In this document: positions 1-47,734 of the stretch, in pieces | How the letters are laid out: the number at the start of each line of letters is the position of its first letter | Position numbering within the stretch: the first letter of the stretch is position 1 | Assembly (NCBI GenBank): GCA_965261395.1 | Contig: OZ253462.1 | Location: forward strand, 2,496,001-2,560,000 | Direction of reading: 5' to 3' | Origin: Candidatus Latescibacterota bacterium | GTDB lineage: Bacteria > Latescibacterota > UBA2968 > UBA8231 | Length of the DNA: 64,000 nucleotides | The notes under the pieces: model-generated | What the model was told of the DNA's origin: nothing | The model's input: only the letters and a program-made list of their open reading frames with translations | Database searches by the model: none | Program-made: the position numbers and the translations under genes

Positions 1-1
1 A

Positions 2-55
2 ACCACCGACAAGGGCCTCTCAGCAGCCGCGGGCACCGTAGCTGTGGCCTACTGA
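2..55 (+). CDS. 3' end of a FlgD/CHU_C-tail secreted protein (partial, runs off window)
   Basis: Frame from nt 2 reads TTDKGLSAAAGTVAVAY*, matching the C-termini of paralogs at 25214 (SGLVNVAY*), 31025 (TGTVGVAH*) and 35637 (ARLVHVAY*); it precedes the same partner family. Confidence 0.7.
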   Translation, partial: TTDKGLSAAAGTVAVAY

Positions 56-62
56 GTGAGCA

Positions 63-2675
63 ATGGCAGGAACTGCGAAACATATCTGCAAAGCCGCCCT
101 CCTTTTGTGGGCTATTAGCGACGGTCCGGTCGCGGCCCAAATCGGGCTACAATCGCTGGCTTCCCCAGGCATGGAAGCCCTCGATCCAGCGGTGCGCCGC
201 TGGTACATACCCCAAGAGTTGGTCGCCGAACACCAGTGGCGGCAGTGGAGCGCCACCAACTACGCACGCGCTCCCTATCAGCGGTATGTCAGTGCCAGCC
301 TCGAGGGGGATTACTTCTACGACTCCTTTGGCAACTTCCTCAATCAGGGCTGGCTGATCTACAACGTATCCCAGTCCAATCCCGAGGAATTCGGCACCGT
401 ATTGTTCGAGGCCCAGCGCTTCCGCAACTGGTTTTCCGAGGTCGCTGTGGCCTCCGAGCACAAAGGGCAATACGCGTACGCGCTGACCATCAGCAGCGAC
501 CTGCGCACCACCCTGACGCCCATGGTGCTGTCCAAACCGCGCCTCGACGGCGTGCAGTTCGACTTTGCCATGGACAAGTACCGGGGCACGTTCCTCTACG
601 CCCAAGCCAGTGCCCCGCGCGGCGTCACCGATCAAGAGCTGCGCCGCACCAATTCCACCACCTTGATCGGGGGACGCTTTGAGGTGCAAATCGGCGATTT
701 CGTCGAACTCGGCGTCCACAGCGCCAACGCCCACCAAGCCAATTCGCTCTCGGAAGAGGCTCTGTTGAGCAACTGGGTAACCGGGTCGCTGACCCAAGGC
801 CAGAACCGCACCATCTCGCGCATCGAAATCGCGCTGCGGGACGACTCGCCCGACGACGGCGTGGGCGGCGCGGCGTATTTTCCAGCCGGCTCAGACATCT
901 TCATCACCTATCGGGATGGCCGCGTGGATTCGGGCCGCGAGATCCGCTTTGAACCTGTGGTAGAGGGCGGCGCGCCTAGGCCGGGCTTTATCGAGGCCAA
1001 CGGCAACGACGAGATCCGCCTGCGCTACGACTTCGACAGCGCGAGCTTCATCAATCGGGCCGCAGCCGACAAAACCGAGATCGTCAAAGTGGAATTCCGG
1101 CTAGTGGTAGCCAACGATTATCAGGTCTGGATAACCTCGGACCAGCAGACCAGCGCTGGCCAGCCTGTGTTCCTGCTGGCGACGCAAGCGCAGGGCAACA
1201 TCAAGGACTTGTCCAACTTGCGCGTCATCAGCTTTGAGGCCGGGCTACCGACGGCAACCCACATCCTCGGCGGTACGGTGAGGGCCAGCGACGTGATGGG
1301 CTTTGACCTGTACGGCGAGTACGACATCAATTGGAACTACCGCAAATATCCCAACATCCTCGTCGAAGAACACCAGACCTCCGCCGGCATTGTCGGCGCG
1401 CGCAACGCACCGGCCTATATGCTCAATCTGTCCCGCCAGTGGCCCCGCTTCTTCATCTATGGCGAAGCCTATTACATGGACCCGCGCTACAACACCCAAA
1501 CTTTCGTCACCCGAGACGACGGCAGCATCGACTACCAAAGCGATCGCAGCCTCATGGATCTGGTGGAAGACAACGACGATCAAGACCGGGTGCCGGACAC
1601 CTTTCGCGCCGACTGGGCCTTCCCCGACCGCCAAGTCTTTCCGGGCTGGGACCAAAACAACGACTTCGTGCCCGACATCAACCAAAACGACAGCCGCGTG
1701 CGCACCAATTCGATCCCGGACTACGAAGAGCCTTTCCTGCGCTTTGCAGTAGATCGGCCCGAATTCCTCTTCGGCGTTGACATGAACAACAACTTCTGGA
1801 CCGACCAATATGAAAATGACCAAGAGCCGGATTACCCCTACAAGCGCGACCACCAAGGCTACAACGCGTACGTCGGCACCTACTTGGCCCCGCAGCTAAA
1901 GATCATCGCCGGCCTCCTGCGCGAGGCCCGCATCTCCTCAAACCAGAAAAACCACAGCGCGTACGCCCTCCTGCGGCTCGACCGGAGCTGGGCGCGCTAC
2001 GGCGATTTGCGCCTCTTCGGCATGACCAAGCGCGTGGAGGACGACATCGCCGACCCACTCTTGCAGTGGGCGCCCGACAACACGCTGCGCCTCGGCACGT
2101 TGACCGAGATTGACGATCCGCTGCTGGCCCGCGACACTTGGATCAACCAGCTCTTCCTCGGCCACAATGTGCGCGCCTTTTCGCTGAACCTACAGAGCAA
2201 GGTCAACTGGGTGGTCTTTCACCAGCTCATAGACGCCGAGCGTCGGCAGCGCTGGGGCCTAGCCGAGACGGATTTCTTCTTCGGGATGATCAACAAGGCC
2301 CACTATCGCCATGTGCTCGGCCCCCTCTATTTAGAGCCGCGCTGGAAGAGCGAGTTTATCAAGCAGAGCCGCGACCTGTTCACGGACGAGCGCCGGACGA
2401 CCCTAGCGGAACTCTTTTCGCTATTGGCGGGCACCGATGTCCTAGAAATCACTAAGCTACAAGCGGGCTTAGAGTACTTGATCTTCGACGATTTCGATGC
2501 GGACGCCAACGATTTCACGGCGCTGACTTGGGGCATTCAGTTCCAGAACGAATCGGCTTATCAAGGCTACAAGCTGCAGACCGTGATCGGGCTGGTGCTA
2601 GAGCGCAAGAACTTCAAAGACGCCCCATCGCGCACCGAGACCCAATCCTTCATCGCCATTTACGCGGGGATTTGA
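63..2675 (+). CDS. Uncharacterised large exported, probable outer-membrane protein (870 aa), paralog A
   Basis: Signal peptide; blocks DPAVRRWYIPQEL, VEDNDDQDRVPD, PDYEEPFLRF..DRPEFLFG, YPYKRD, YQGYKL and terminal IYAGI are shared with the ORFs at 28371 and 32908. Confidence 0.85.
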   Translation: MAGTAKHICKAALLLWAISDGPVAAQIGLQSLASPGMEALDPAVRRWYIPQELVAEHQWRQWSATNYARAPYQRYVSASLEGDYFYDSFGNFLNQGWLIYNVSQSNPEEFGTVLFEAQRFRNWFSEVAVASEHKGQYAYALTISSDLRTTLTPMVLSKPRLDGVQFDFAMDKYRGTFLYAQASAPRGVTDQELRRTNSTTLIGGRFEVQIGDFVELGVHSANAHQANSLSEEALLSNWVTGSLTQGQNRTISRIEIALRDDSPDDGVGGAAYFPAGSDIFITYRDGRVDSGREIRFEPVVEGGAPRPGFIEANGNDEIRLRYDFDSASFINRAAADKTEIVKVEFRLVVANDYQVWITSDQQTSAGQPVFLLATQAQGNIKDLSNLRVISFEAGLPTATHILGGTVRASDVMGFDLYGEYDINWNYRKYPNILVEEHQTSAGIVGARNAPAYMLNLSRQWPRFFIYGEAYYMDPRYNTQTFVTRDDGSIDYQSDRSLMDLVEDNDDQDRVPDTFRADWAFPDRQVFPGWDQNNDFVPDINQNDSRVRTNSIPDYEEPFLRFAVDRPEFLFGVDMNNNFWTDQYENDQEPDYPYKRDHQGYNAYVGTYLAPQLKIIAGLLREARISSNQKNHSAYALLRLDRSWARYGDLRLFGMTKRVEDDIADPLLQWAPDNTLRLGTLTEIDDPLLARDTWINQLFLGHNVRAFSLNLQSKVNWVVFHQLIDAERRQRWGLAETDFFFGMINKAHYRHVLGPLYLEPRWKSEFIKQSRDLFTDERRTTLAELFSLLAGTDVLEITKLQAGLEYLIFDDFDADANDFTALTWGIQFQNESAYQGYKLQTVIGLVLERKNFKDAPSRTETQSFIAIYAGI

Positions 2676-2676
2676 C

Positions 2677-2706
2677 TTGACGTACGCTTTTGCTGGCATG
2701 TATATT
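2677..2706 (+). promoter_or_regulatory. Candidate sigma70 promoter for the 2801 gene
   Basis: TTGACG-18 bp-TATATT; SD GGAGG before ATG 2801. Confidence 0.45.
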
Positions 2707-2800
2707 GAATTTTTATTTTTTGCGGAACTGAGAAGACGGCCGAGTTACCGCATCTTCTCTTTTCTTTATTTCACCCCTATCTAGTGGAGGTAGCTTCACC

Positions 2801-3694
2801 ATGAAAAAGATTCTCACCATCGCCTTTGCCTCGTTGGGCCTTGTGGTTGCCGCCCAAGCCCACGACCCGCCTGGCGGTCTGTTGGTCGCCGTGAACTTTC
2901 CCGATGCCAACGTGCCCGTCATTGATGGCAACGCCGGCGAGTGGGCCCCCGTGCCCCTCGACCAGTACGGGATTTTCAGCGAGTCCTTGTATTCGATTCA
3001 CGGTTTTGCCGGCGAGAACGTCGAGCAAGGCGGGCTGGACGCCAGCTCGATGCAGATCCGCCACATCGTCGGCTGGAACGACGCGACCAACAACGTGTAC
3101 CTCACCAGCCGCGTCTTCGACAACATTCACGTCACTCAGCGTCAAGACCCGGGCAAGTTCTTCTGGGACGACAGCGTCGAGTACGAGATCAACGCTTCGC
3201 ATCAGGCCCGAGAGGACCTGAATCCCGGTGACGATGCGACCAGCTTCAGCTACAAGTTCGCCTTCCCGGTTTTTCAGGAGACCTTCGAGTGGTATCGGCC
3301 GATCGTCAACCTGCCGTGGATGACCAGCGGCTCGCAGTGGGTCGAGATCGCCCACAGCTTCACGGGCGACGAGTTCGGCGAGAGCACCTACGACTACGAG
3401 GCGCGCTTCCTGCCGATCGAGCGGATGCCGCGCTCGGATGAGGCCACCGAGGATCAGGTCGAAATTCACGACCTGACCGAGGGTGGGGTCATTCACATCA
3501 CCCTGACGGTCAACGACGTCGATGGCGGCGAAGGCGAAGGCGACAACCGCATCGGCATGTGGAGCACCAATCCCACTTCGTGCTGCCACGCCGGCCAGGA
3601 CTTGCTGCTGACCCCGGCCGATCCCAACATCGACTGGGGCGCTGCCACGGCCGTCGAGTCGAGCAGCTGGGGCCGGATCAAGTCCCAGTTCTAG
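2801..3694 (+). CDS. Secreted CBM9/DOMON-like (sugar-binding-like) protein with C-terminal AVESSSWGRIK tag
   Basis: Signal peptide (AQA/HDP); PVIDGNAGEW and DDSVEYEI resemble CBM9-like motifs; C-terminus TAVESSSWGRIKSQF. Confidence 0.7.
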   Translation: MKKILTIAFASLGLVVAAQAHDPPGGLLVAVNFPDANVPVIDGNAGEWAPVPLDQYGIFSESLYSIHGFAGENVEQGGLDASSMQIRHIVGWNDATNNVYLTSRVFDNIHVTQRQDPGKFFWDDSVEYEINASHQAREDLNPGDDATSFSYKFAFPVFQETFEWYRPIVNLPWMTSGSQWVEIAHSFTGDEFGESTYDYEARFLPIERMPRSDEATEDQVEIHDLTEGGVIHITLTVNDVDGGEGEGDNRIGMWSTNPTSCCHAGQDLLLTPADPNIDWGAATAVESSSWGRIKSQF

Positions 3695-3720
3695 GCAGTT
3701 TTATTTTTATCGCAGTACCA

Positions 3721-3759
3721 TTCCGGGCAGGTCTCGCCTAGATGCGGGGCCTGCCCGAA
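3721..3759 (+). terminator. GC-rich hairpin after the 2801 gene (terminator or mRNA stabiliser)
   Basis: CGGGCAGGTCTCGC-ctagat-GCGGGGCCTGCCCG followed by AATACTTTT. Confidence 0.55.
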
Positions 3760-3776
3760 TACTTTTAGGAGGCTAT

Positions 3777-4643
3777 ATGCTCACCGAGGAACAGGTTGAT
3801 TTTTACCGCGAAAACGGCTATCTCGTCGTCGAGAATGTGTTGCGTTCAGACGAGCTGGAGGAGGCGCACGCTATTGTCGATGACTTCGTCGAGCAGTCGC
3901 GGCTCGTCTCCGAGCAGAGCGGGCACTTCGACCTAGAGCCAGGTCACACCCCTGAAAATCCCAAGGTGCGCCGCTTGAGTGCACCGGCGAGTTATCACCC
4001 CTTCTTCGATGGATTGATGCGCGACAGCCGCATCCTAGACCTTTTGACGCCCCTGATCGGCAGTGCCATTCGCGCCCAAGGCGACAAGCTCAACATGAAG
4101 CCGGCCGACGGCGGCAGCCCGGTCGAGTGGCACCAAGACTTTGCCCATTATCCGCACACCAACGACGATTTATGCGCCGTGGGCATTGCCCTAGACGACG
4201 CCACAGAAGAAAATGGCTGCATGATGGTAGTGCCCGACTCTCACCGGGGACCGATCCTCGATCACCACCAAGATGGCTACTTCATTGGGGCCATCAGCCC
4301 GGAGCGCGACGAGATTGACCTCTCGTCGGCCGTGCCCTTAGCGATGAAAGTCGGTTCGCTTTCCATCCACCACAGCCGCACTTTGCACGGCTCGGCGCTC
4401 AACCGCTCGGGTATGTCCCGACGACTCTTGCTGTATCAGTACGCGGCCGTCGATGCTTGGCCCTTGGGCGGAGTGGGTAACTGGGATGCCTTTAATGCCA
4501 ACATTCTGCGCGGCGCACCCACCTACGATTTTCGCCTCGTATCGCTGACGGCTCGCACGCGCCTACCCGTCGGGCAACGCAGAGGCGGCGGCATCTACGA
4601 GCTACAACAGCCGCTGCGCGAAAAACTATTCGCCGCTAGCTAG
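3777..4643 (+). CDS. Phytanoyl-CoA dioxygenase (PhyH) family Fe(II)/2OG dioxygenase
   Basis: LTEEQVDFYRENGYLVVENV, WHQD, ALDDATEENGCM, HGSALNRS..RR. Confidence 0.92.
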   Translation: MLTEEQVDFYRENGYLVVENVLRSDELEEAHAIVDDFVEQSRLVSEQSGHFDLEPGHTPENPKVRRLSAPASYHPFFDGLMRDSRILDLLTPLIGSAIRAQGDKLNMKPADGGSPVEWHQDFAHYPHTNDDLCAVGIALDDATEENGCMMVVPDSHRGPILDHHQDGYFIGAISPERDEIDLSSAVPLAMKVGSLSIHHSRTLHGSALNRSGMSRRLLLYQYAAVDAWPLGGVGNWDAFNANILRGAPTYDFRLVSLTARTRLPVGQRRGGGIYELQQPLREKLFAAS

Positions 4644-5941: not shown

Positions 5942-6882
5942 AGAACCAAAACAAAGCCGCGTTCTTCTTTCTGCTGCCCAATTTCGTCGGCTTTCTCATC
6001 TTTGCGCTCGGGCCGGTCATAGTGGCTGCGGGCATGGGCTTCTACCGCTATCAGCTCGCCTCGGGCGTACCCGCCTTCATCGGGCTGGATAACTTTGCGG
6101 ATCTGGTGCTCTTCAAAAAGGTCGACGGCGAGTGGGTGGCGCGCGACCCATACTTTTGGAAGTACCTCGGCAACACGCTCTTTTTGATGCTCAATATCCC
6201 GCTTTCCATGGTCGGCTCCCTGCTCTTGGCTGTGCTGTTAAACAAAGAACTGCCCGGCCGCATCTTCTTCCGCACCCTATTCTTTATTCCACACCTGTGT
6301 ACGGGCATCGCCATCTATATGGTCTGGAAGATGCTCCTGACCTACGAGCCCAACGTCGGCATCGTCAACGGGCTTTTGTGGCAGGTCTTTGGGGTGTTGG
6401 GGATTGCGCCCGAGCAGGCCGCCGCGCTCCTGCCGGGGTGGCTAATCGACGCGACTTGGGCCAAGCCCGCGTTGATCATCATGTTTATCTGGGCCAGCGT
6501 CGGCGGCTACAACATGGTTCTCTACTTGGCCGGCTTGCAAAACATCCCGCCCGAACTCTACGAGGCCGCTGAAATGGACGGAGCGGGCTGGTGGGCACAA
6601 CTGGTCCACATCATCGTGCCGCAGCTAGCGCCCACGACGTTTTTCATCCTCGTCACCAGCGTAATCGGTGGTCTGCAAGGCGGCTTTGAGGCCGCCTACG
6701 TAATGACCGGGGGCGGCCCCGAGGGATCGACGACCACCATGAGCTACTACATCTACACCCAGGCGTACGAGCAGCTAGAAGTAGGGTACGCAGCGGCGAT
6801 TTCAATGGTGCTCTTCGCGCTGATTTTCGCGGCGACCTTGCTCAACTGGCGCTACGGCGGCAAGCGGTTGGAGGCTGTCTAA
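5938..6882 (+). CDS. Carbohydrate ABC transporter permease (MalF-like)
   Basis: FIGLDNF; EAA loop LAGLQNIPPELYEAAEMDGA. Confidence 0.93.
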   Translation: MKNQNKAAFFFLLPNFVGFLIFALGPVIVAAGMGFYRYQLASGVPAFIGLDNFADLVLFKKVDGEWVARDPYFWKYLGNTLFLMLNIPLSMVGSLLLAVLLNKELPGRIFFRTLFFIPHLCTGIAIYMVWKMLLTYEPNVGIVNGLLWQVFGVLGIAPEQAAALLPGWLIDATWAKPALIIMFIWASVGGYNMVLYLAGLQNIPPELYEAAEMDGAGWWAQLVHIIVPQLAPTTFFILVTSVIGGLQGGFEAAYVMTGGGPEGSTTTMSYYIYTQAYEQLEVGYAAAISMVLFALIFAATLLNWRYGGKRLEAV

Positions 6883-25213: not shown

Positions 25214-27109
25214 TCAATACGCCACGTTGACTAGGCCGCTGTGGCGCGTGGTGCCGACATCGGCTGCGACTTGGAGATGATAGAGGTACATCCCCGGTGA
25301 GACCAGTCTGCCCCAATCGTCGCGCCCATCCCAAACTTGGGCAAAGCGTCCGCTCTGGTCCTCGCCGGCATATCCCCGACGCACCAAACCACCTCCCAAA
25401 TCATAGATGCGAAAGAAGACCGACGCTGGCCGCGTCAGCTTGAGCAAGCTATAGGAGACTGCAAACAGGTCGTTGACCCCGTCGCCGTTGGGCGTCAGCA
25501 CCCGCTGGGCTGGCGTTACATCGGCGACGAGAGCAGCGTTCGGTGCGGAGAGGCGCACCGTCAGTCCCACGCCCGGTAATGCGGGATCTACATCCGCTTC
25601 GCGTGCGTACTGGAACATCTCGTAGGGTGCCCCATCCGCGATGTGTCGCTGCTCTACTGCGCGCACCTCAAAACGCGTGCCATCGACAAAGACTTTGCCG
25701 CGAAAGAAAATATGTACGAGGCTGCCGTCCTTTAGTACCCGCCGCCAGAGGTTTACGGCAAATCCGCGCCCAGGGTCCAAGCGCAGGGTATGCAGTGCGT
25801 GTTCGTCATCGACCTTGACGCTGTCAATGCCCTCGATCTGCGCTGCGGTCAGTACCTCGACCAAGCGGAAACCAGTGTCCGACCGCTCCGCGAGGCGGTG
25901 CGTCTGCACGATCGCCACAAAGGCCGTTTCTTCCCCGGCATCGACTAGCGGCGGGCTGATTTCGGCGTAGATCTCGCCGGCGACCGGCGGCGAAGAGTAC
26001 TCGAAAACGAGTCGCTCTAACTTGACGCCCGGCTGCAAAAAGCGCACTTGGAACTGCAAGAAGCGGTTTGGGCTTGGCGAGCGCACCACCCCACCAGTGA
26101 CCGTCTCCCAGCCGCTCCAGTCGGGATTGGCCACGACCGGCCCTTGGGCAATGCCTGGGAATTCGGGGGCATTTTCCCAGACGGCTCGATTGACCCGGAT
26201 CTCGTCTGGTCCTTGGGTGATGAAGTAATGTAGGGGCTCGTCATCCGGGCCGGTGCGCGTCTGCAGGATAATGGGCAATTCCTCCAGCGGCGCACCCCCC
26301 TCGTGGCGCAGCCGTCCCCACACCGGCGTTCCGCTGCTGGCCAAAAGCGGGACCGAGCGAAAAAACCCCGGCAACGTCGTGCCATCGGTGTAAAGCTCTA
26401 GCTCGGCCAACTCCCAGGGCGCGTCGCCTAGGGGCAGGAAGCGCACGTAGCGCGCTTGGCGCTGGCCGCTGACCGAGAGGATGCCCGGCCACTCGATAAT
26501 CGCGCGAATATTAGGCCGGGTAGGGCCAAAGAAAACATAGCGTTGGAAGTTGACCTTGCCGCCGGAATCATCTTGGGTGGGATCGGCGCTAGAAGTCAAC
26601 AGGCGATTCAGTGAGTCCACCGGCTGTAGGTAGTCGCTCAGCCCCAAGTCAAAAGTCTGCGGAAAGTTCCCGATGTGTTCGGCGTCGAGGCGCGGGAACG
26701 CTCTGGTCCGCACGATGGTATAGACCCCGCCCAAGTCGATATAGATCGGCGCTTGGCGGCTCAACCCAAACTCATCGGGGTCAAAAGCCGTCCCCGGGTC
26801 GCCATCGGCAATTGCTTGTACCGCGGTTAGATCGCGGCGGAACACGGCAATCGTTTCCTGCAAAGAACCTAGGGTAGGCTCCGTGACCGAGACCAAAATC
26901 TGCCCGCCCCGCGCAAGGGCGTTGGCCATCAGATTCTCGCCTGGTGTCACCGCCCACGTCCACAGCGAATCAGGGGCTCCGTTGACGAAGGCCACAGAGT
27001 CTTGGATGGCTAGGTAAGAGTGCCCCTCTCGGCCCACCACCAGTTCCCACTGCGGCCAAGCCGGACCGGCGCTTAACGCAACCACCCATATGCAGAGGTG
27101 CAACCACAT
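25214..27109 (-). CDS. Secreted discoidin-like protein with FlgD/CHU_C-type tail (631 aa)
   Basis: Signal peptide; YIDLGG..ARYVRF..ELELY; LTPNGDGVND..IYDLGG..WDGRDDWGRLVSPGMY..VAY. Confidence 0.8.
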   Translation of the reverse strand: MWLHLCIWVVALSAGPAWPQWELVVGREGHSYLAIQDSVAFVNGAPDSLWTWAVTPGENLMANALARGGQILVSVTEPTLGSLQETIAVFRRDLTAVQAIADGDPGTAFDPDEFGLSRQAPIYIDLGGVYTIVRTRAFPRLDAEHIGNFPQTFDLGLSDYLQPVDSLNRLLTSSADPTQDDSGGKVNFQRYVFFGPTRPNIRAIIEWPGILSVSGQRQARYVRFLPLGDAPWELAELELYTDGTTLPGFFRSVPLLASSGTPVWGRLRHEGGAPLEELPIILQTRTGPDDEPLHYFITQGPDEIRVNRAVWENAPEFPGIAQGPVVANPDWSGWETVTGGVVRSPSPNRFLQFQVRFLQPGVKLERLVFEYSSPPVAGEIYAEISPPLVDAGEETAFVAIVQTHRLAERSDTGFRLVEVLTAAQIEGIDSVKVDDEHALHTLRLDPGRGFAVNLWRRVLKDGSLVHIFFRGKVFVDGTRFEVRAVEQRHIADGAPYEMFQYAREADVDPALPGVGLTVRLSAPNAALVADVTPAQRVLTPNGDGVNDLFAVSYSLLKLTRPASVFFRIYDLGGGLVRRGYAGEDQSGRFAQVWDGRDDWGRLVSPGMYLYHLQVAADVGTTRHSGLVNVAY

Positions 27110-28374
27110 CAGAAGGTGATCCTGTTTTTGATGGTAGGGATTAGGTCGAGGCTAGCCGCGCTGAGCGGATTGCCGCGCAGGTCGGCCGAGAGCAGCTTCT
27201 CCAGTGTTAGCAATACAGCGATATCCACCACTTGATTGTCCGGCAGGTGCAGACGTCTGAGTTCGGGGAGGCCGGCCAGCGGCGACAGGTCCTCGACTGC
27301 ATTGTCCGCGAGATATAGTATCTCCAGCCGGCGGAGATCCGCCAGCGGCGACAGGTCTTGTATTTGGTTTATCTCGAGCCACAATTCGCGGAGGTTGACC
27401 AAGCCGACCAGTGGCGCAATATCCACAATGGCGTTGTTGTTGAGGTTGAGTTTCTCCAGGCTTGTCAGTTGGGATAGGGCGCTAATATCCTCGATATTGG
27501 CCGTCGTCAATTGGAGTATCTCCAGCCGGCGGAGATCCGCCAGCGGCAACAGGCTCTCCAACTCGCCCTCGCTGGTAGAGCCGCTAAAGCTCAGGCTTTC
27601 TAAGTTGGTTAGCTGCTCAATGCCCTCCAGCGACTTGACCGAGCTGTTGAGCCTCAGACGGGTGATTACGCGCAAATCCGCCTCCGTCAATTCCTCGGTT
27701 GGCTTCCTGACCGCACTGTGCACTGTCTGCTCTAGTTGGGCGTCCTCGAAAGATATCCCCGGTAGGAAAAAGGTCACCTCCATCCCTCGCCCGCGCAGGG
27801 CTTCCACTTGGTCTAGGTCGAGCGGGTTGCCCGACAGCTCGACGCTGCGCAAGCGCCGGAGCTGCGAAAGCACCGAAACATCGCGAACTTGGTTGCCGTC
27901 GAGGTTGAGCAGGTCTAACCGCGTCAGCCGCGCCAGCGGCGCAAGGTCTTCCACTTGGTTGCCGTCGAGATTCAAGGCCTTTAGCAGGAGGAGGTTGGCT
28001 AGCGGCGCGAGGTCGGCGATTTGGTTGTTAGACAGGTCGAGCACTTGTAGTCGGGTCAATCCGGCGAGCGGGCCAATATCCACTACGGCATTATCGCCCA
28101 GCATCAGCGTATCCAGGCCCCTCAGCCGCTCAATCCCCTCGATATTAGCGATCTCATAGCCGCCCGCATCCAGGGTTTGCAGTCCAGATAACTCCTCGCT
28201 TGCCAAGCCTCCTTGCGGTTGTCGCAGCGCCTGCCGCACCGCTCGTTCCAACCTCGCGTCCGCGAAGATGCTATGGTCAAAGATCGGCTCTTCATCTGAG
28301 ATTGGGGGTTGGAAGGGCGGGCGCTCGCTGCTGCAACCCAGCCACAAAAGCGCTGTCCAGAGTACGCATCTCAT
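27109..28374 (-). CDS. Internalin-like leucine-rich-repeat lipoprotein
   Basis: Lipobox WLGC; 22-aa LxxLxLxxNxIxDLxPL repeats in two modules, each with an FxDxxLE cap and an LxGNPL end. Confidence 0.9.
   Translation of the reverse strand: MRCVLWTALLWLGCSSERPPFQPPISDEEPIFDHSIFADARLERAVRQALRQPQGGLASEELSGLQTLDAGGYEIANIEGIERLRGLDTLMLGDNAVVDIGPLAGLTRLQVLDLSNNQIADLAPLANLLLLKALNLDGNQVEDLAPLARLTRLDLLNLDGNQVRDVSVLSQLRRLRSVELSGNPLDLDQVEALRGRGMEVTFFLPGISFEDAQLEQTVHSAVRKPTEELTEADLRVITRLRLNSSVKSLEGIEQLTNLESLSFSGSTSEGELESLLPLADLRRLEILQLTTANIEDISALSQLTSLEKLNLNNNAIVDIAPLVGLVNLRELWLEINQIQDLSPLADLRRLEILYLADNAVEDLSPLAGLPELRRLHLPDNQVVDIAVLLTLEKLLSADLRGNPLSAASLDLIPTIKNRITF
27317..27547. repeat. Identical 33-bp direct repeat within the LRR gene
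   Basis: AGTATCTCCAGCCGGCGGAGATCCGCCAGCGGC at 27317-27349 and 27515-27547, 198 bp (three LRR units) apart. Confidence 0.9.
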
Positions 28375-31028
28375 TGCTCGACTCCCGCGTACACGGTGAG
28401 AAAACCCCTAGTCCGCGTCCGCGTCCCCTCGACTTCTTGGTAGCGCCGGGTCACGTCGAACCCCAGCACCGTCGTCAGCTTATAGCCCTGATAGTCAGAG
28501 ATATTGGTCAACTGGGCGACCGTCGTCGTCTCCCAGAAGCTGTCTTCGGCCCCCGGTGGCGTCGGCTCGCGCAACTGCCAGAAGTTGTGGTATTCGATCC
28601 CGGCCTCTAAGTAGCTGCTGTGCAGGACGGACACGCGCCCGACAGCGAGCAGGAGCTGGCTCCACTCCTTGCGCTCGGGCTGGCTGCGAAGTACCGGGAC
28701 CTCGCGGCGGAACTCGCTTTTGCAAGCCGGTCTTAAGGTCAGCTTGCCTAGCTGTAGCCGGTACTCGGCCTTGTTGATCAGGCCGAGGAACGAGCCGTCT
28801 TCGCGCTGCCCGCGCAATAGTAACGCGGTGCTTGGGTCGCGCTGGTGGTAGGACTGCCACTTGAACCTGTTGACGAACTTAAAACCGGGCCAGCGGTCGA
28901 AGTCAAAACCCAGCCAGGTAGTATTGACCACCGTGTTCTGCGCCGGCAGCACGTCCGGGGTCGGCACCAGTTCGCCTTGGGTATTGGGTAGTTGCGTCCA
29001 CTGCACTAGGTGGTCGAAGATATCGTCTTTGACGCGGCGCAGGTCCTGAAAAACCCGTGCCCGCCCCCAGTTAGTGAAGTAGTGATCCCCGGCCAGCATC
29101 AGGTAATCGGCGTGGGCGCGGCGATGGTCGGAGCGTTGCGCGATTCGCTGGCGGCCTGCGGTCGCCCGCAGATCGGGGTGCAAAAAGGCACCGACGTACA
29201 GATTGTAGCCCTTGCGGTCGCGCTTGTAGGGCAGGTCGGCCTCCTCGTCGTTTTCAAAGCGGTCGATCCAGCCGTTGTGGTTTTGGTCGATGCCGTAGAG
29301 GAACTCTGGCCGGTCGGTGTGGAAGCGCAGGAAAGGCTCTTCGTAGTCGGGCACCCGGTTGGGGCTCGAATGGGTGTCGTTCTGGTTGAAGTCGGAAATC
29401 AGGTCGTTGTTCTCGTCCCAGCCGGGGAAGATCTGGCGGTCCCTCGGCGACCCCTGCCGTGCCCAGTCGGGGAAGCGGTCTTGGTCGTCGTTATCTTCGA
29501 CGAATTCAAAGAAGCGCAACGGGTTCGCGTAATCGACGATGCCGTTGCGATCGACGACCTGGAACCCGGTCTGGTAATTGGGGGCGATGTCGAAGGCTTC
29601 CAACAGCGCGAAGTAGGGATAGTCGGTCTTGGAGACGTTGAGCATCCAGGCCTCGGCCTCGCCGCTGGCGACGTGGTGCTTTTCGAGGTTGGGGTTGGGG
29701 TATTGCCGGTATTGCTGATTGGCGGCGACTTCAAAGTAGGTGTTGAAGCCCTCAAGATCGGTCAACTCGAGGGTGAAGCCGGCGATCTGATTGGCGGTGG
29801 GCAGTCCGTAATCGAGGGCCAACACTTGCTGGTTGGACGAGTCCTTGACATTGCCTGGTGCCCGCGCCACCGGCACCGCCACGATCCGCTCTTGGAAGTC
29901 GATCTGGCGATCGGAGGCCATCTCGACGAGGTAGTCATTGGCCAGCACTAGTTCGACCTGCACTCGCTGAATTTCGCTGGGAGGCGGCCCGGTGTAGGAG
30001 CGGTCTTGGAAATCGTAGCGCAGGCGGATCTCCTCGTGCCCATCGGCGGCGAGAAAACCTCGGCGCTGGAACCCGCCCTCCACCAGCGGCCGGAAGCCGA
30101 GCTCTGAGCCTCGCGTGCGCTTGCCCTCTAGATCCCAGATGACGATGTCCTGCGCGAATAGTGCGCCGCCAGCCTCGCCGTCTGCGGGCGAATCGTCCTT
30201 AATGACTACTTCGATAAAGCTGACGTTGGTCAAGTTCTGCACGCCGGTGAGGTTGCCCTTGAGGATATTGCCATTGAATATTTCGGTCTGAGTCTGCGCG
30301 TGGTGCGCGTTCAGGTAGGTTCCACCGACCTTGACGAAGTCGCCGACCTGCATTTCCAACCGGCTGCCGATCAAGCTGGTGTTGTTGGTCTTTTCCGAGG
30401 TGCCCGTCGGCGAGCCGGTCTCGTCGATCAGGCTATTGAGCCGCGACAGCAGTATGGTAAGCGCGTATTTGTCGGAGAGCAGGTCCCATTGGATGCCGTT
30501 GAAGCGCGGCTTGGAGAAGGTCATCGGCGTCAGGGTGGTGCGGATCTGGCTGCCAATGGTGATGGCGTAGTGGTATTGCCCTTTGTGGTCTGAGGCGATC
30601 AGTAGCTGGTTGAACCAACCGGCGAAGCGCCCATCCTGGGCCAAAGTCGAACCAAAGGGCTGGGGATTCTGCTGCCGCCAGTCGAAGATCAGCCAGCCGC
30701 GAGTCAGATAGTTGCCATATACATCGTAAACATAGCTGCCTTCGAGCGAGGTGGAGACGTAGCGCTGGTACAGGTCGCGCGCGTAGTTAGAGTACTCCCA
30801 CTGTTTCCAGCGATATTCGGTGTACAGTTCCTGCGGGATGTACCACTTGCGCACGGCCGGATCGAGCGCGTCGAAGAGCACGCCAGGTCCGCGCGGTTCA
30901 AAAGAGACTTTGCCGCCGCGTTTGACGGTGCCGAGGCGCGCACCGTAGTCTTGGGCAGCGAGGGGCAGAGAGATCAGGGGCAGGAACAGGAGTACCCATA
31001 GCGCTTGACACCTTCTTTTCCCGATCAA
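28371..31028 (-). CDS. Uncharacterised large exported, probable outer-membrane protein (~885 aa), paralog B
   Basis: TTG start overlapping the upstream TGA; signal peptide; DPAVRKWYIPQEL, FVEDNDDQDRFPD, PDYEEPFLRF..DRPEFL, YQGYKL, VYAGV. Confidence 0.85.
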   Translation of the reverse strand: MIGKRRCQALWVLLFLPLISLPLAAQDYGARLGTVKRGGKVSFEPRGPGVLFDALDPAVRKWYIPQELYTEYRWKQWEYSNYARDLYQRYVSTSLEGSYVYDVYGNYLTRGWLIFDWRQQNPQPFGSTLAQDGRFAGWFNQLLIASDHKGQYHYAITIGSQIRTTLTPMTFSKPRFNGIQWDLLSDKYALTILLSRLNSLIDETGSPTGTSEKTNNTSLIGSRLEMQVGDFVKVGGTYLNAHHAQTQTEIFNGNILKGNLTGVQNLTNVSFIEVVIKDDSPADGEAGGALFAQDIVIWDLEGKRTRGSELGFRPLVEGGFQRRGFLAADGHEEIRLRYDFQDRSYTGPPPSEIQRVQVELVLANDYLVEMASDRQIDFQERIVAVPVARAPGNVKDSSNQQVLALDYGLPTANQIAGFTLELTDLEGFNTYFEVAANQQYRQYPNPNLEKHHVASGEAEAWMLNVSKTDYPYFALLEAFDIAPNYQTGFQVVDRNGIVDYANPLRFFEFVEDNDDQDRFPDWARQGSPRDRQIFPGWDENNDLISDFNQNDTHSSPNRVPDYEEPFLRFHTDRPEFLYGIDQNHNGWIDRFENDEEADLPYKRDRKGYNLYVGAFLHPDLRATAGRQRIAQRSDHRRAHADYLMLAGDHYFTNWGRARVFQDLRRVKDDIFDHLVQWTQLPNTQGELVPTPDVLPAQNTVVNTTWLGFDFDRWPGFKFVNRFKWQSYHQRDPSTALLLRGQREDGSFLGLINKAEYRLQLGKLTLRPACKSEFRREVPVLRSQPERKEWSQLLLAVGRVSVLHSSYLEAGIEYHNFWQLREPTPPGAEDSFWETTTVAQLTNISDYQGYKLTTVLGFDVTRRYQEVEGTRTRTRGFLTVYAGVEQ

Positions 31029-32911
31029 TGCGCCACCCCCACCGTCCCGGTGTGCACTTCCGCAAACGCATCCGACTGCACCCGCAACACCCAAATATAG
31101 GTCCCCGGCAACACCGTACTTCCATCTGCTCGCCGTCCGTCCCACTGCACCTCCACCGGCCCGATTCCTCGCTCATCGTCGAACACCTCATGCACCAATC
31201 GCCCCGATAGATCGAACAAGTCCAAGCGCACCGGCGCGGGCCGCGTTAGCTGCAACACGTTGAAATACACGTCGAGATGATCGTTGATCCCGTCGCCATT
31301 GGGCGTAAAAATGCGCGACCCGAACGCGATCTCGCCGACCAGCTTGCCGATCTGCGCCTTGGGGATCGCCACCGAGAGGTTCGATAGCTCGGGGAAATCT
31401 CCCGGCCCGAAATCCGTCGCCTCGCCTGGTGCCAACCGCTGCGGCACGGCGTCCGCACGGCTGTTGTAGACACGGCCCGAAAAGGTGGTGCCAAAGCGAA
31501 AAATAGGCAGATCGAAGGTGAACTCCAGCACTGCCCCGTCGTGGCGAATAAGGGGAAAACTGAGACCGAAGCTGTCGTCGCGAATAAAATCCATCGCAAA
31601 GTCGAGCGGCTGCCCGTCGAGTGTTACCTCACGCATCGCCGTGATTGGTACATTGGCGTCGATTTCCAACCGGTCAAAACCGCGCACCTCTCCGGTGGTG
31701 CGCAGTCGCACCGCGTAGCGGAAAGTCGCTGGCTTTTCCGCCTCGGCCAGCCGCGGAAAAACCTCGGCGTGCAGCGAGTCCGCCAGCGGCGGCTGTAGAT
31801 AGTCAAAGCGCAGCTCGTCAACTTGACGTGCCTCGAAGAGACCCGCCGCAAACTCGAAGCGGAACTGGATATAGCGGCGTGGGGTCGGTGCCCTCACCAG
31901 CTCGTCCATGCGCACTGCAAACCACGGGCTCCAGTGCTCGGTATCGCTGCGGATGCCGCCGCGATCAGCCAGCAATAGCGAATCGACATAGCTCTCGCGG
32001 CTGACCACTCGCAGAGAGCGAACGCCGTCGGCGTCAGAAAACCATTCGCGATAGACCAGCGGTGTGGGGTCGGTGCCTGTCCGCACCCGTACCTCTAGGT
32101 CTGAAAAATCCGCATGGCCAACAATGTCTTCAATCCACTCGACAAAGCCTACCGTGGCCCGGTCGCCCAAGTCGATGATATTGGACAAATAGAGGCTCTG
32201 CTGCAGAAAGCCCGTGCCATAGACCTCGACCTCGTCAATTTCAAAAGGCACGTCGGCCAGCGATTTGATCTTGACGAAGCGCGCGTATTGCGGTGGGACC
32301 TCCACATTGACGACCGACTCCTCGTTTTGCGCCTCGCGCTGGATCAGCACATCGGGCTGGCCGGACGGGAACTGATTGAGCCATACCTCGTAGCCACGCA
32401 GAAAGTCGTTGTGGAACGGCGTTGCTGGCGTCGCCACCACGGTGTTGCGGGGGTAGAACTGTACCCGCCGTACTCCCACCGGCACCCCAAAGTCGAGGAT
32501 TACCCAAATGCCCCTCGTTGCCACCCTCGGTTCGAAAATTGTCGGTTTGCGCTCAAAGGCCACCTCGTGATCGCCGTTGACCGTGCCCAGGAGCTGGCGT
32601 TCGTGGCCGCGGCCGGCGTTGGGTGCTTGAATCGAGCCGAACGCTAGGACTCGCGCGGCGATGTTGATCCCCTCTGCAAAATGCAGCGGTCCGATCCAGC
32701 CCGGCCGATAGTCAAAGTCGATGGTCGCCCCCGGTGTGTTAGTCAACTCGATCTGGCCGAGCTGGACATTGAGTACATGCTCGGGTTTGAGACCATCGCC
32801 GCCCACTTGCCAAGCGGAGGTGCCTTGGTCGCCGAGCACGTAAGTCTGCGCTGGCTGGCCGAGGAGGCCGCTTGGCAGCACGAGCACCGCGACCCCCAGC
32901 CAGTTTCTCAT
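31025..32911 (-). CDS. Secreted discoidin-like protein with FlgD/CHU_C-type tail (628 aa)
   Basis: Signal peptide; ILDFG..ARFVKI..EVEVYG; FTPNGDGIND..FDLSGRLV..WDGR..PGTY..VAH. Confidence 0.8.
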   Translation of the reverse strand: MRNWLGVAVLVLPSGLLGQPAQTYVLGDQGTSAWQVGGDGLKPEHVLNVQLGQIELTNTPGATIDFDYRPGWIGPLHFAEGINIAARVLAFGSIQAPNAGRGHERQLLGTVNGDHEVAFERKPTIFEPRVATRGIWVILDFGVPVGVRRVQFYPRNTVVATPATPFHNDFLRGYEVWLNQFPSGQPDVLIQREAQNEESVVNVEVPPQYARFVKIKSLADVPFEIDEVEVYGTGFLQQSLYLSNIIDLGDRATVGFVEWIEDIVGHADFSDLEVRVRTGTDPTPLVYREWFSDADGVRSLRVVSRESYVDSLLLADRGGIRSDTEHWSPWFAVRMDELVRAPTPRRYIQFRFEFAAGLFEARQVDELRFDYLQPPLADSLHAEVFPRLAEAEKPATFRYAVRLRTTGEVRGFDRLEIDANVPITAMREVTLDGQPLDFAMDFIRDDSFGLSFPLIRHDGAVLEFTFDLPIFRFGTTFSGRVYNSRADAVPQRLAPGEATDFGPGDFPELSNLSVAIPKAQIGKLVGEIAFGSRIFTPNGDGINDHLDVYFNVLQLTRPAPVRLDLFDLSGRLVHEVFDDERGIGPVEVQWDGRRADGSTVLPGTYIWVLRVQSDAFAEVHTGTVGVAH

Positions 32912-41050: not shown

Positions 41051-41107
41051 AGTGTGATCTCTCGCATTCTCGTTGAGTGTTTGAGGACAGTTAGATCTTC
41101 CACATGG

Positions 41108-47714: not shown

Positions 47715-47734
47715 GATGTGCCTCCACGTCTTGG

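What the first reader, a model, noticed from the sequence alone, without database searches (positions are those of the whole stretch)
63..2675. Unrecognised ~900-aa exported protein family with an acidic Ca-binding-like core (three paralogs)
Seen: ORFs 63-2675, 28371-31028 and 32908-35637 share ordered blocks: P(A)VxxWY..YxRY(V/I)...LEG..YDxxG..GWL; TP(M/L)xxxKPRxxG; DDSP..G.GGA; ANDY; GN(V/I)xDxSN; GLPTA; YPN; (E/D)DxDD; PGxDxNxD..DxNQN; PDYEEPFLR...DRPEFLxGxDxNxN..DxxEND..DxPYKRD; INKA; KSEF; YQGY; YAG. The DxNxN/DxDD motifs resemble EF-hand or thrombospondin-3-like Ca loops. The C-terminal third has alternating hydrophobic strands. I do not recognise a named family; a beta-barrel with a large Ca-stabilised insert is inference.
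Basis: partly seen in the sequence, partly recalled or inferred. Interest (0 to 1): 0.8.

Follow-up and report, generated by a model that had tools for sequence, protein, structure and literature searches.

The report
New outer-membrane barrel family, T9SS-linked
These genes encode a previously unnamed family of large calcium-loop-bearing outer-membrane barrel proteins that sit next to, and probably hold or export, a huge family of sugar-binding-type cell-surface proteins in an uncultured bacterial phylum.

Summary
ORFs 63-2675 (+), 28371-31028 (-) and 32908-35637 (-) are paralogs at 45% and 35% identity, and every listed motif is present. None matches Pfam or NCBIfam.

AlphaFold2 gives a confident model (pLDDT 86.4) of a roughly 24-stranded outer-membrane beta-barrel. 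It carries a beta-sandwich insert and an acidic region with two EF-hand-like loops. Fold searches return only generic large barrels.

The genome, a Latescibacterota MAG, holds 46 intact copies, not three. For 39 of 46, the first non-barrel gene upstream encodes a discoidin protein with a T9SS type-B-like (CHU_C) C-terminal domain. No type-A protein lies next to a barrel.

Distant relatives sit in a conserved operon: cargo, PorV/PorP-like barrel, this barrel, a 1,050-aa TPR protein, then ExbB-ExbD. This genome has one such operon too.

Best reading (about 0.45): a cognate outer-membrane docking or export partner of these surface proteins, in an undescribed T9SS-related module. Main rival (0.25): a TonB-energised uptake channel analogous to SusCD. 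The family is new and its function is inferred, not shown.

The parts
1..55 (+). 3' end of the upstream 'cargo' gene (693 aa, G000 C1:2493974-2496055): discoidin-family passenger plus a CHU_C/FlgD_ig C-terminal domain ending ...VAVAY
   Evidence: CHU_C 35 bits, FlgD_ig 26 bits; 39.2 bits at C1:2495762-2496013
63..2675 (+). Barrel paralog 1 (870 aa), the finding's ORF
63..140 (+). Signal-peptide-like N-terminus (res 1-26, hydrophobic helix then ...VAAQ)
   Evidence: sequence; helix 5-19 in the model; the same layout in other paralogs
141..440 (+). Conserved N-terminal region (res 27-126: DPAVRRWY..YQRYV..LEGDYFYD..GN.L..GWL). Residues 19-77 have low model confidence; small strands at 83-116 and a helix at 118-124
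441..743 (+). Barrel strands 1-6 (res 127-227)
   Evidence: DSSP of the models
744..1244 (+). Inserted beta-sandwich-like domain (res 228-394; DDSP, ANDY, GN.KD.SN motifs), pLDDT about 90-98
1245..1478 (+). Barrel strands 7-10 (res 395-472; GLPTA, YPN)
1479..1850 (+). Acidic, mostly coil insert (res 473-596: VEDNDDQD, PGWDQNND, PDYEEPFLRF, DRPEFLFG)
1650..1685 (+). EF-hand-like loop 1 (res 530-541, DQNNDFVPDINQ)
   Evidence: D530, D534 and D538 invariant or nearly so
1779..1814 (+). EF-hand-like loop 2 (res 573-584, DMNNNFWTDQYE). The broad-family consensus DxNNNGxxDxRE has Gly at position 6
   Evidence: D573 and D581 invariant in 90 sequences
1851..2672 (+). Barrel strands 11 to about 23 (res 597-870), ending ..IYAGI
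2801..3694 (+). 'F2' family secreted protein (297 aa, ends SSWGRIKSQF), a recurrent neighbour of barrels
   Evidence: 18 of 31 paralogs within 4 genes of a barrel
25214..27109 (-). Cargo-family protein (631 aa) with a CHU_C/FlgD_ig CTD
27109..28374 (-). Leucine-rich-repeat protein (421 aa) in the same operon
28371..31028 (-). Barrel paralog 2 (885 aa; alternative GTG start at 31145)
31025..32911 (-). Cargo-family protein (628 aa) with a CHU_C CTD, directly upstream of paralog 2
   Evidence: 41.3 bits
32908..35637 (-). Barrel paralog 3 (909 aa; alternative GTG start at 35763)
35637..38273 (-). Cargo-family protein (878 aa): F5/8 type C (discoidin) domain plus a CHU_C/FlgD_ig CTD, directly upstream of paralog 3

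Best explanation
The ~900-aa proteins are a new family of large (about 24-strand) outer-membrane beta-barrels. Two big loops, a beta-sandwich domain and a Ca2+-loop-rich acidic domain, most likely form an extracellular cap. Each barrel is the cognate outer-membrane partner of the discoidin (F5/8-type-C) surface proteins encoded immediately upstream, which carry a T9SS type-B-like (CHU_C) C-terminal domain.

Proposed mechanism: the surface proteins are exported via Sec and then across the outer membrane using their CTD. The genome encodes SprA, PorV and PorU. The adjacent barrel then receives the proteins and holds them at the cell surface, as PorP/SprF-like shuttles do for type-B cargo in Bacteroidota.

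The module descends from a conserved operon: cargo, PorV/PorP-like barrel, this barrel, a ~1,050-aa TPR protein, ExbB-ExbD-ExbD, then a SurA-like PPIase. In this Latescibacterota lineage the cargo-plus-barrel pair was amplified to 46 barrels and 142 cargo genes, about 6.9% of the genome.

Shown: the barrel fold prediction, the loops, the paralog numbers, the gene linkage, its specificity for type-B-like CTDs, and the operon conservation. Inferred: the topology of the inserts, Ca2+ binding, physical contact between barrel and cargo, and the docking or anchoring role.
For: Fold: AF2 model with pLDDT 86.4 and pTM 0.85, made of long antiparallel strands. All fold matches are outer-membrane barrels. 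A signal peptide is visible, and distant members end in ...FAGF.

Linkage in the genome: for 39 of 46 barrels, the first non-barrel gene upstream on the same strand is a CTD protein, against a background of 215 of 4,749 ORFs.

Specificity: of 115 CHU_C-best CTD ORFs, 29 lie within 1 gene of a barrel and 63 within 3. Of 79 type-A (TIGR04183-best) ORFs, 0 lie within 1 gene and 2 within 3. The cargo passenger family has 142 members, none of type A, and 78 lie within 3 genes of a barrel.

Other genomes: in 66 of 76 related loci the upstream ORF ends in this CTD.

T9SS parts present in this genome: SprA, and PorV next to PorU.

Phyletic pattern: barrel in 106 of 168 genomes of the phylum. PorP_SprF is found in 0 of 75 genomes of the barrel-rich family f1 and in 26 of 31 of the barrel-less family f4. 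CHU_C best E<1e-6 in 101 of 106 barrel genomes against 0 of 62 barrel-less ones (hand count, threshold chosen afterwards).

Independent lineage (relatives labelled Ignavibacteriales and KSB1): a PorV/PorQ/PorP-family gene directly upstream in 44 of 44 testable loci, a CHU_C cargo before it in 36 of 36, and a TPR protein downstream in 41 of 41.

Precedent: porP/sprF-like genes lie directly downstream of type-B CTD genes and their products bind the cargo (PMC12618676 Introduction and section 10 read; PMC9143113 abstract read).
Against: No sequence similarity to PorP/SprF, PorV or SprA was found (hhalign against SprA gave probability 2.2%).

In the ancestral operon a PorV/PorP-like gene already sits between cargo and barrel. 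The big barrel is therefore not simply a replacement shuttle.

The CTDs pass Pfam CHU_C (cut-off 27 bits) but fall below the NCBIfam TIGR04131 cut-off (20.7-24.5 bits against 35). They also score with FlgD_ig, so their type-B status is by resemblance.

GldL and GldM motor profiles found nothing in this genome (the controls were silent in two of these). A complete classical T9SS is therefore not demonstrated.

The ExbB-ExbD/TonB-like linkage, the CBM32-type discoidin domains, the PUL-like amplification and an ABC sugar-type importer at 4652-7784 fit an uptake system equally well.

Seven of 46 barrels lack an upstream CTD gene. Genomes compared within one phylum are kin, so the phyletic contrasts amount to only a few independent events.
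Confidence: 0.45

Rival explanations
1. A TonB/ExbBD-energised nutrient-uptake channel. The barrel would be a non-canonical gated transporter, and the adjacent discoidin (CBM32-type) CTD proteins its surface substrate-binding partners. This would be a functional analogue of SusC/SusD-type systems, amplified per substrate as PULs are.
For: ExbB, ExbD and a TonB-like gene share the conserved operon with the barrel (ExbB and ExbD found in 30 of 42 loci). The partners carry an F5/8-type-C domain. Amplification to 46 barrels and 142 partners resembles polysaccharide-utilisation loci, a comparison I draw from recall. Paralog 1 is followed by a solute-binding protein and two ABC permeases at 4652-7784. 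A conserved N-terminal segment of about 100 aa precedes the barrel. TonB-dependent receptors appear among the fold matches at Z 9-11.
Against: No Plug or TonB_dep_Rec Pfam hit at E<=1. Neighbours that recur are of a biogenesis type: SurA-like PPIase, TPR proteins, a PorV-like barrel and a PMT_2-TPR protein. No glycoside hydrolase was seen among the neighbours I scanned, but only one or two members each of the recurrent neighbour families (12 neighbour proteins from other loci, plus the window's own genes) were scanned and not all 35 barrel loci. The ABC importer is present at only a few loci. The partners use a secretion-type CTD whose class tracks the barrel.
Confidence: 0.25
2. An autonomous, dedicated translocon, a 'mini-T9SS'. 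The barrel itself would be the conduit through which the adjacent CTD protein crosses the outer membrane. The PorV-like barrel would act as shuttle, the TPR protein and SurA-like PPIase as periplasmic chaperones or scaffold, and ExbBD as the motor.
For: The operon content parallels the partners listed in the title of PDB entry 8gl8: SprA-PorV-PPI-RemZ-SkpA-SprE. The operon here has a big barrel, a PorV-family barrel, a PPIase and a TPR protein with a weak PorW/SprE score of 91-130 bits, below the 250 cut-off. A barrel of about 24 strands is in the usher/LptD size class. No GldLM was detected. Dedicated translocators encoded beside their cargo have precedents in ushers and TpsB (recall).
Against: No homology to SprA. 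TPR scores are repeat-driven and non-specific. The genome has its own SprA, PorV and PorU. Most of the 46 amplified loci lack a PorV-like gene, the TPR1050 protein and ExbBD.
Confidence: 0.15
3. A general porin or envelope/S-layer tether of the SlpA type, with the gene linkage being incidental.
For: SlpA (8ae1_A) is among the two best Foldseek hits (E 2.5e-9 and 2.5e-8), with VIA Z 12.1 over 427 aligned residues. Two distant family members give sub-threshold Pfam SlpA_C hits: 32.7 and 19.8 bits against a cut-off of 35.
Against: TM-scores are at most 0.24. Profile searches against PDB sequences do not find SlpA even at E<=10. There is no SLH or coiled-coil part. The strict, class-specific synteny is not expected for a general porin.
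Confidence: 0.05

Closest known systems
PorP/SprF-like shuttle/anchor proteins of the Bacteroidota T9SS (PF11751, TIGR03519)
   Same: An outer-membrane beta-barrel encoded directly downstream of a gene for a CHU_C/type-B-CTD surface protein. One barrel per cargo set, amplified together with the cargo. Largely complementary distribution within the phylum (PMC12618676, PMC9143113).
   Different: About 900 aa and about 24 strands, against about 300-400 aa. No detectable sequence similarity. Large extracellular-type inserts with EF-hand-like loops. In the ancestral operon it co-occurs with a PorV/PorP-family gene rather than replacing it.
SprA/Sov T9SS translocon
   Same: A very large outer-membrane barrel working beside a PorV-family barrel, a PPIase and a TPR protein. 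SprA of this genome also carries a DxNxDG-type loop, which is the only local hhalign match.
   Different: SprA is about 2,150 aa here. hhalign probability is 2.2% and SprA_N gives no hit. The genome has a genuine single SprA in addition.
TonB-dependent receptors / SusC-SusD pairs
   Same: A large barrel genetically tied to ExbB-ExbD/TonB-like genes and to surface proteins with a carbohydrate-binding-type domain; many copies per genome.
   Different: No Plug or TonB-dependent-receptor domain. The partners are CTD proteins and not SusD-type lipoproteins. The neighbours are chaperone or TPR types.
Deinococcus SlpA barrel, MtrB, LptD, FimD/PapC ushers (largest solved OM barrels)
   Same: Best structural matches: Foldseek E 5e-9 to 1e-5 and VIA Z 10-13. 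Comparable barrel size.
   Different: TM-scores are at most 0.33 and no match stands above the generic barrel background. No sequence relationship.

Membership tests
Outer-membrane beta-barrel protein (general class) | N-terminal signal peptide; closed antiparallel barrel of amphipathic strands; terminal strand ending in an aromatic-containing signal | tested here: met
   A signal-peptide-like N-terminus is visible. 23 long strands were counted in DSSP of a pLDDT 86.4 model. All top fold hits are OM barrels with Z up to 14. C-termini read ..YAG[LIV]x here and ..FAGF in distant members.
PorP/SprF (PF11751, TIGR03519) | Sequence match to the family profile | tested here: not met
   No hit at E<=1 for the three window paralogs, nor for the 979-aa ancestral-type paralog at E<=0.01 in NCBIfam.
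PorP/SprF (PF11751, TIGR03519) | Gene directly downstream of a type-B (CHU_C) CTD gene | tested here: met
   39 of 46 barrels. The upstream partners are CHU_C-best in 31, borderline in 4, not scored in 4, and without a CTD in 7.
PorP/SprF (PF11751, TIGR03519) | Physical binding of the cognate type-B cargo | not testable with these tools
   Needs co-purification or a structure.
SprA/Sov translocon (PF14349) | Profile similarity to SprA | tested here: not met
   No SprA_N hit. hhalign of A4 against a 28-sequence SprA alignment gave probability 2.2%, with only a 67-column local match on the DxNxNG loop.
TonB-dependent receptor (PF07715 Plug + PF00593 barrel) | Plug domain and TonB-dependent receptor barrel profile | tested here: not met
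   No hit at E<=1. The same scan found both domains in other window ORFs.
TonB-dependent receptor (PF07715 Plug + PF00593 barrel) | 22-strand barrel with a lumen-filling N-terminal plug (structure) | tested here: inconclusive
   TBDT chains match at Z 9-11 like many other barrels.
SlpA_C (PF21620) | Profile match over the barrel | tested here: inconclusive
   The query gave no hit. Two distant members scored 32.7 and 19.8 bits, below the cut-off of 35, over about 90 residues. Foldseek ranks SlpA 1st or 2nd but with TM at most 0.24.
EF-hand-type Ca2+-binding loop | 12-residue loop with D-x-[DN]-x-[DN]-(G)-x-x-[DN]-x-x-[ED] ligand spacing | tested here: met
   Two loops, at residues 530-541 and 573-584. 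At least one is present in 46 of 46 paralogs. D530, D573 and D581 are invariant in 90 diverse sequences, and the consensus DxNNNGxxDxRE has Gly at position 6.
EF-hand-type Ca2+-binding loop | Actual Ca2+ binding | not testable with these tools
   No Pfam EF-hand or TSP3 hit. Needs ITC or a structure.
DUF6029 (PF19494; lead from the protein atlas, score 0.89) | Profile match | tested here: not met
   No Pfam hit at E<=1. The atlas score lies below its own 0.9 guide value.
T9SS type-B CTD (partner proteins; PF13585 CHU_C / TIGR04131) | C-terminal domain matching the type-B profiles | tested here: inconclusive
   Pfam CHU_C scores 28-37 bits against a cut-off of 27 in the window partners, and about 128 ORFs in the genome pass that cut-off. 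NCBIfam TIGR04131 gives only 20.7-24.5 bits, below its cut-off of 35. The domains also hit FlgD_ig.

The most novel reading that the evidence does not exclude
The barrel is the outer-membrane core of an undescribed, proton-motive-force-driven trans-envelope machine. That machine would comprise an ExbB-ExbD-ExbD motor, a TonB-like protein, a ~1,050-aa periplasmic TPR scaffold, a SurA-like PPIase, a PorV-family barrel, this Ca2+-capped barrel and a discoidin adhesin. It would be conserved across several FCB-group phyla and related in logic to T9SS/gliding and to Myxococcus Agl-Glt, exporting its discoidin adhesin and possibly moving it along the cell surface. In Latescibacterota the adhesin-plus-barrel output module would have been multiplied 46-fold to display a large repertoire of glycan-binding surface proteins.
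Probability: 0.2. Interest if true: 0.85.

Novelty: new variant of a known kind. Interest (0 to 1): 0.68.

Why it matters
Latescibacterota are uncultured, and here about 7% of a 6.5-Mb genome is spent on one barrel family plus one surface-protein family that carry no annotation (127.8 kb of barrels plus 324 kb of cargo). If the reading is right, it extends the rule "type-B CTD cargo has its own barrel encoded next door" beyond Bacteroidota to a structurally different partner. It also exposes a conserved operon that joins T9SS-type parts (CTD cargo, PorV-family barrel) to an ExbBD/TonB-type motor, in lineages where the classical GldLM motor was not detected. That bears on how T9SS-like export is energised and organised outside Bacteroidota. 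In practice, it gives names and testable partners to hundreds of 'hypothetical' proteins in metagenomes: 1,001 cluster representatives at E<=1e-3.

Tried and rejected
Complex prediction of barrel (alignment A2) plus the cognate 109-aa CTD (A3): no verdict, score 0.00 in two runs and controls not run. It counts neither for nor against binding.

Sequence routes to a known family, all empty: Pfam and NCBIfam on the three paralogs; PDB sequence profiles with A2 and A4 (the single EcoR124 hit at E 0.019 is a chance match on 'VANDY'); hhalign against SprA.

Five fold searches on two models gave only generic barrels, so no family was assigned from them.

The usher-like reading (plug domain inserted after strand 6) was considered, because FimD/PapC align with comparatively low rmsd (Z 10.4, rmsd 5.4). 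I rejected it. The 2-3-residue turns in the model place the insert on the side opposite to an usher plug (inference), and there is no usher Pfam hit.

'F5' neighbours (about 255 aa) were suspected to be TonB-like. They are lipoproteins with a Cys lipobox and no Pro-rich linker.

GldM and GldL searches found nothing. In two of these the controls were silent, so absence is not shown.

RNA evidence: contigs from four metatranscriptome libraries (two studies) cover 25-30 of 30 bins of window 1-3800 at 90-99% identity. They bridge the cargo/barrel junction (X16 record 9, X17 record 17) and the barrel/F2 junction (X15 record 4, X16 record 14). Contigs cannot prove transcription, so this is at most a weak hint.

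Literature: no paper in the searched library combines Latescibacteria or Latescibacterota with type IX secretion or T9SS. Searches for PorV+ExbB+ExbD+Ignavibacteria and for Latescibacteria+outer membrane+beta-barrel returned only unrelated papers (listings seen). bioRxiv supplements and subscription journals were not searchable.
Full report
OBSERVATION. The three ORFs exist as described. Longer GTG-started frames are also open. None of the three proteins matches any Pfam or NCBIfam model, even at E<=1.

WHAT THE PROTEIN IS. A first AlphaFold2 run with 52 close homologs gave pLDDT 72.8. A second run, with 90 sequences reaching down to 23% identity, gave pLDDT 86.4 and pTM 0.85.

Both models consist of long antiparallel strands at residues 127-227, 395-472 and 597-869. 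I count 23 long strands in the DSSP string, so the barrel probably has about 24. Between the strand blocks lie two inserts:
- a well-predicted beta-sandwich-like domain (residues 228-394);
- an acidic, mostly coil region (residues 473-596).

After a signal-peptide-like N-terminus comes a conserved stretch of about 100 residues. Residues 19-77 of it stay at low confidence.

Hairpins joined by 2-3-residue turns alternate with the long loops. If, as in solved outer-membrane proteins, the tight turns face the periplasm, both inserts are extracellular.

Foldseek and VIA-align searches on both models return only outer-membrane barrels. The largest solved barrels rank first:
- MtrB, E 5.2e-9;
- SlpA, E 2.5e-8;
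- LptD;
- FimD/PapC ushers;
- TonB-dependent receptors;
- SprA, E 5e-5.
TM-scores are at most 0.33 and VIA Z at most 14.2, and no match stands clear of the rest. Profile searches against all PDB sequences find nothing meaningful. The protein is therefore an outer-membrane beta-barrel of a family with no solved or curated relative.

THE ACIDIC CORE. Residues 530-541 (DQNNDFVPDINQ) and 573-584 (DMNNNFWTDQYE) have EF-hand ligand spacing. The pattern occurs at least once in 46 of 46 genome paralogs and twice in most. In the other 1.94 million residues of the proteome it occurs 75 times. In the 90-sequence family alignment D530, D573 and D581 are invariant, and the consensus of the second loop, DxNNNGxxDxRE, carries the canonical glycine at position 6. 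Metal binding itself is untested.

COPY NUMBER AND SPREAD. The window lies in a single-contig 6.55-Mb genome (95% complete, 8% contamination). That genome encodes 46 intact paralogs of 866-1060 aa in 35 loci, nine times as adjacent pairs. Together they make up 127.8 kb, or 1.95% of the genome.

Homologs number more than 350 in the 90%-identity collection, all unnamed or 'hypothetical'. Among 50%-identity representatives, 1,001 reach E<=1e-3 and 333 reach E<=1e-30.

Named genome records are almost all Candidatus Latescibacterota MAGs. Some are labelled Gemmatimonadota, and there is one contig each labelled Woeseia and Bryobacterales. Within the phylum, 106 of 168 species genomes have the family: 75 of 75 in the window's family f1, but 0 of 22 in f3 and 0 of 31 in f4. 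Distant members at 27-41% identity carry Ignavibacteriaceae, Ignavibacteriales and candidate division KSB1 labels.

CONTEXT IN THIS GENOME. I called ORFs genome-wide (4,749 non-overlapping ORFs) and built an HMM of the roughly 105-residue C-terminal domain seen in the window's neighbours (consensus ..FTPNGDGIND...IYDL.GR.V....WDG.D..G..V.PG.Y......D.......V.VAY). This domain ends 215 ORFs. For 39 of 46 barrels, the first non-barrel gene upstream on the same strand is such a protein. Of the other seven, five have a same-strand upstream gene without the domain and two a divergent gene.

Genome scans with the curated profiles split these domains into two classes:

| CTD class | ORFs | within 1 gene of a barrel | within 3 genes |
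|---|---|---|---|
| Type A (TIGR04183-best) | 79 | 0 | 2 |
| CHU_C-best (PF13585, 'type-B' profile) | 115 | 29 | 63 |

Both scans were capped at 150 scored candidates, so 23 CTD ORFs stayed unclassified.

Even with the CTD removed, the neighbours form one family. It has 142 members: 110 type-B-like, 12 borderline, 17 unscored, 3 without a CTD hit and none type A. They add up to 324 kb, or 4.95% of the genome. 78 lie within 3 genes of a barrel and 99 within 10. Their only recognised passenger domain is F5/8 type C (discoidin).

Other recurrent neighbours (background is 314 of 4,749 ORFs within 4 genes):
- SurA-like PPIases: 21 of 35 paralogs within 4 genes of a barrel;
- a ~300-aa secreted family ending ..WGRIK: 18 of 31;
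- a ~255-aa lipoprotein family: 9 of 12;
- PMT_2+TPR proteins;
- FG-GAP/ASPIC proteins;
- polytopic DUF6785+DUF6784 membrane proteins.

In other genomes, 66 of 76 related loci with a usable upstream ORF show the same CTD directly upstream of the barrel. Many of those genomes are close kin.

LINK TO TYPE IX SECRETION. The genome has a genuine SprA (2,156 aa; relatives are annotated 'cell surface protein SprA'). It also has a PorV (61.8 bits, cut-off 27) next to a PorU sortase (618 bits, cut-off 420). It has no PorP/SprF hit and no GldM or GldL hit. For two of those last three searches the control genomes were silent, so absence is not established.

In Bacteroidota, type-B CTD substrates depend on and bind cognate PorP/SprF-like barrels, and a porP/sprF-like gene commonly lies directly downstream of the substrate gene (PMC12618676, abstract, Introduction and section 10 read; PMC9143113, abstract read). 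The arrangement here has the same gene order and the same CTD-class specificity, but a barrel three times larger.

Across the phylum the two barrel types are largely complementary. PorP_SprF is found in 0 of 75 f1 genomes and in 26 of 31 f4 genomes, with a few genomes holding both (f7, f9, f12). Strong CHU_C domains track the barrel: best E<1e-6 in 101 of 106 barrel genomes against 0 of 62 barrel-less ones. That is my hand count, with the threshold chosen after seeing the data. Related genomes are not independent, so these contrasts amount to a few evolutionary events.

THE ANCESTRAL OPERON. The most informative result came from the distant subfamily. In 56 metagenomic loci with barrels 36-100% identical to one another, the order of genes around the barrel is fixed:
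1. a 560-620-aa F5/8-type-C protein with a CHU_C/FlgD_ig CTD;
2. a ~310-aa PorV/PorQ/PorP-family barrel (NF033709 at 56-104 bits, two of five above the 90-bit cut-off; PF11751 at 29-31 bits in three of five, cut-off 22.3);
3. the big barrel;
4. a ~1,050-aa TPR protein (YbgF/BamD-type repeats; PorW/SprE only 91-130 bits, below the 250 cut-off);
5. ExbB;
6. ExbD;
7. a TonB-like protein.
In one subgroup ExbB and ExbD lie upstream of the cargo gene instead.

Counts over testable loci:

| Feature | Loci with it / testable loci |
|---|---|
| PorV-like gene directly upstream of the barrel | 44 / 44 |
| Cargo gene before the PorV-like gene | 36 / 36 |
| TPR protein directly downstream | 41 / 41 |
| ExbB and ExbD within the locus | 30 / 42 |

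The window's own genome keeps this arrangement at C1:5297000-5316900:
- cargo, 552 aa;
- PorV-family-like protein, 286 aa (45.7 bits, below cut-off);
- barrel, 979 aa;
- TPR protein, 1,090 aa;
- ExbB;
- ExbD;
- ExbD;
- lipoprotein;
- SurA-like PPIase.
A second locus (C1:4606000-4621000) keeps cargo, barrel and TPR, with a 525-aa AAA-domain ORF between the cargo and barrel genes. The 40-odd other loci look like amplified cargo-plus-barrel output modules of this system.

HOW IT MOST LIKELY WORKS. I commit to this reading at about 0.45. The barrel is the cognate outer-membrane partner of the neighbouring discoidin/type-B-like-CTD proteins. It receives them at the outer membrane and keeps them displayed, with its Ca2+-stabilised inserts forming the extracellular docking cap. 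The whole belongs to an undescribed T9SS-related module that ancestrally also contains a PorV-family barrel, a giant TPR protein, an ExbBD-type motor and a PPIase.

Shown by computation:
- the fold class;
- the loops;
- the gene linkage and its CTD-class specificity;
- the operon conservation in a second lineage.

Inferred:
- the topology;
- Ca2+ binding;
- physical contact between barrel and cargo;
- the direction of transport.

Points against this reading:
- there is no sequence similarity to PorP/SprF, PorV or SprA;
- a PorV/PorP-like gene stands beside the barrel in the ancestral operon;
- the CTDs miss the NCBIfam type-B cut-off;
- 7 of 46 barrels lack a CTD neighbour.

RIVALS.
- Uptake channel (0.25). 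A TonB/ExbBD-energised channel with the discoidin proteins as surface binders, a SusCD analogue. It is favoured by the ExbBD/TonB linkage, the CBM32-type domains, the PUL-like amplification and the ABC importer at 4652-7784. It is disfavoured by the lack of a Plug domain and by biogenesis-type neighbours.
- Autonomous translocon (0.15). The operon content parallels the SprA-PorV-PPI-SprE assembly named in PDB entry 8gl8, but hhalign gives 2.2% against SprA, and most amplified loci lack the other parts.
- SlpA-like porin or tether (0.05). It rests only on weak fold and sub-threshold Pfam signals.

COMPARISON AND NOVELTY. The protein works most like a PorP/SprF-type cognate barrel, or alternatively a SusC-type partner, but it is not a member of either family, because the profile tests failed. 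I found no description of the family or of the operon in the searchable literature. I rate it a new variant of a known kind: a new large outer-membrane barrel family with a new, conserved T9SS/ExbBD-linked context. The boldest reading still open is a separate PMF-driven surface-adhesin machine (probability about 0.2).

LIMITS.
- Model coordinates, cluster-member names and earlier scan notes were unavailable.
- The single complex prediction returned no verdict.
- RNA-library contigs cover the gene and both junctions but cannot prove transcription.

Noticed in passing
window 19549-23871 (+): A 1,440-aa ORF is a full-length match to the NACHT antiphage protein HyoA (NF058534, 1601.9 bits against a cut-off of 1200). 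It sits between metabolic genes and the barrel operon.
   Followed up: no
window 61433-62527 and 62299-63870 (-): A TonB-dependent receptor appears split into two overlapping ORFs in different frames, with the Plug domain in one and the barrel in the other. This could be a frameshift, a pseudogene or an assembly error.
   Followed up: no
window 38642-52583 (-), 53370-54977 (-), 54856-57619 (+): Five tandem full-length MacB_PCD/FtsX permease genes (about 800 aa each) plus a truncated copy at 41108-41863, followed by an HlyD-type adaptor. A divergent sigma-54 response regulator and histidine kinase pair lies next to them.
   Followed up: no
window 2801-3694 (+); 31 paralogs in G000: A secreted family of about 300 aa with no Pfam or NCBIfam hit. 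Members end in a conserved ..(S/T)WGRIK(S/T).F tail, and 18 of 31 lie within 4 genes of a barrel. In RNA-library contigs X17/X18 this gene's contigs have far higher word depth than the barrel's (77-149 against 2-6), but contig depths cannot rank genes.
   Followed up: partly
G000 C1:2064938-2071408 (L170), SprA residues about 1043-1059: The genome's SprA carries a conserved PDTEDLNNDGVLN.RNDYYHY loop of the same DxNxDG type as the barrel's second EF-hand-like loop. It was the only local hhalign match (probability 2.2%), so it is a shared motif and not evidence of homology.
   Followed up: partly
G000, e.g. C1:382702-388433, 1174247-1179866, 3706065-3711679: Barrels occur nine times as directly adjacent pairs. 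The first and second members of the pairs fall into two different score groups, which suggests the hetero-pair was duplicated as a unit and may form a two-barrel complex.
   Followed up: no
G000 C1:2480520-2482511 (L096) and 54 paralogs: A polytopic membrane protein (at least 10 hydrophobic segments) with DUF6785+DUF6784. It has 55 copies in the genome, 27 of them within 10 genes of a barrel. Its function is unknown; it could be an inner-membrane transporter or a glycan-handling protein.
   Followed up: partly
window 9996-11006 (+): A DDE transposase (DDE_Tnp_1_5 / DDE_Tnp_1) lies between the ABC importer genes and two ABC exporter genes.
   Followed up: no
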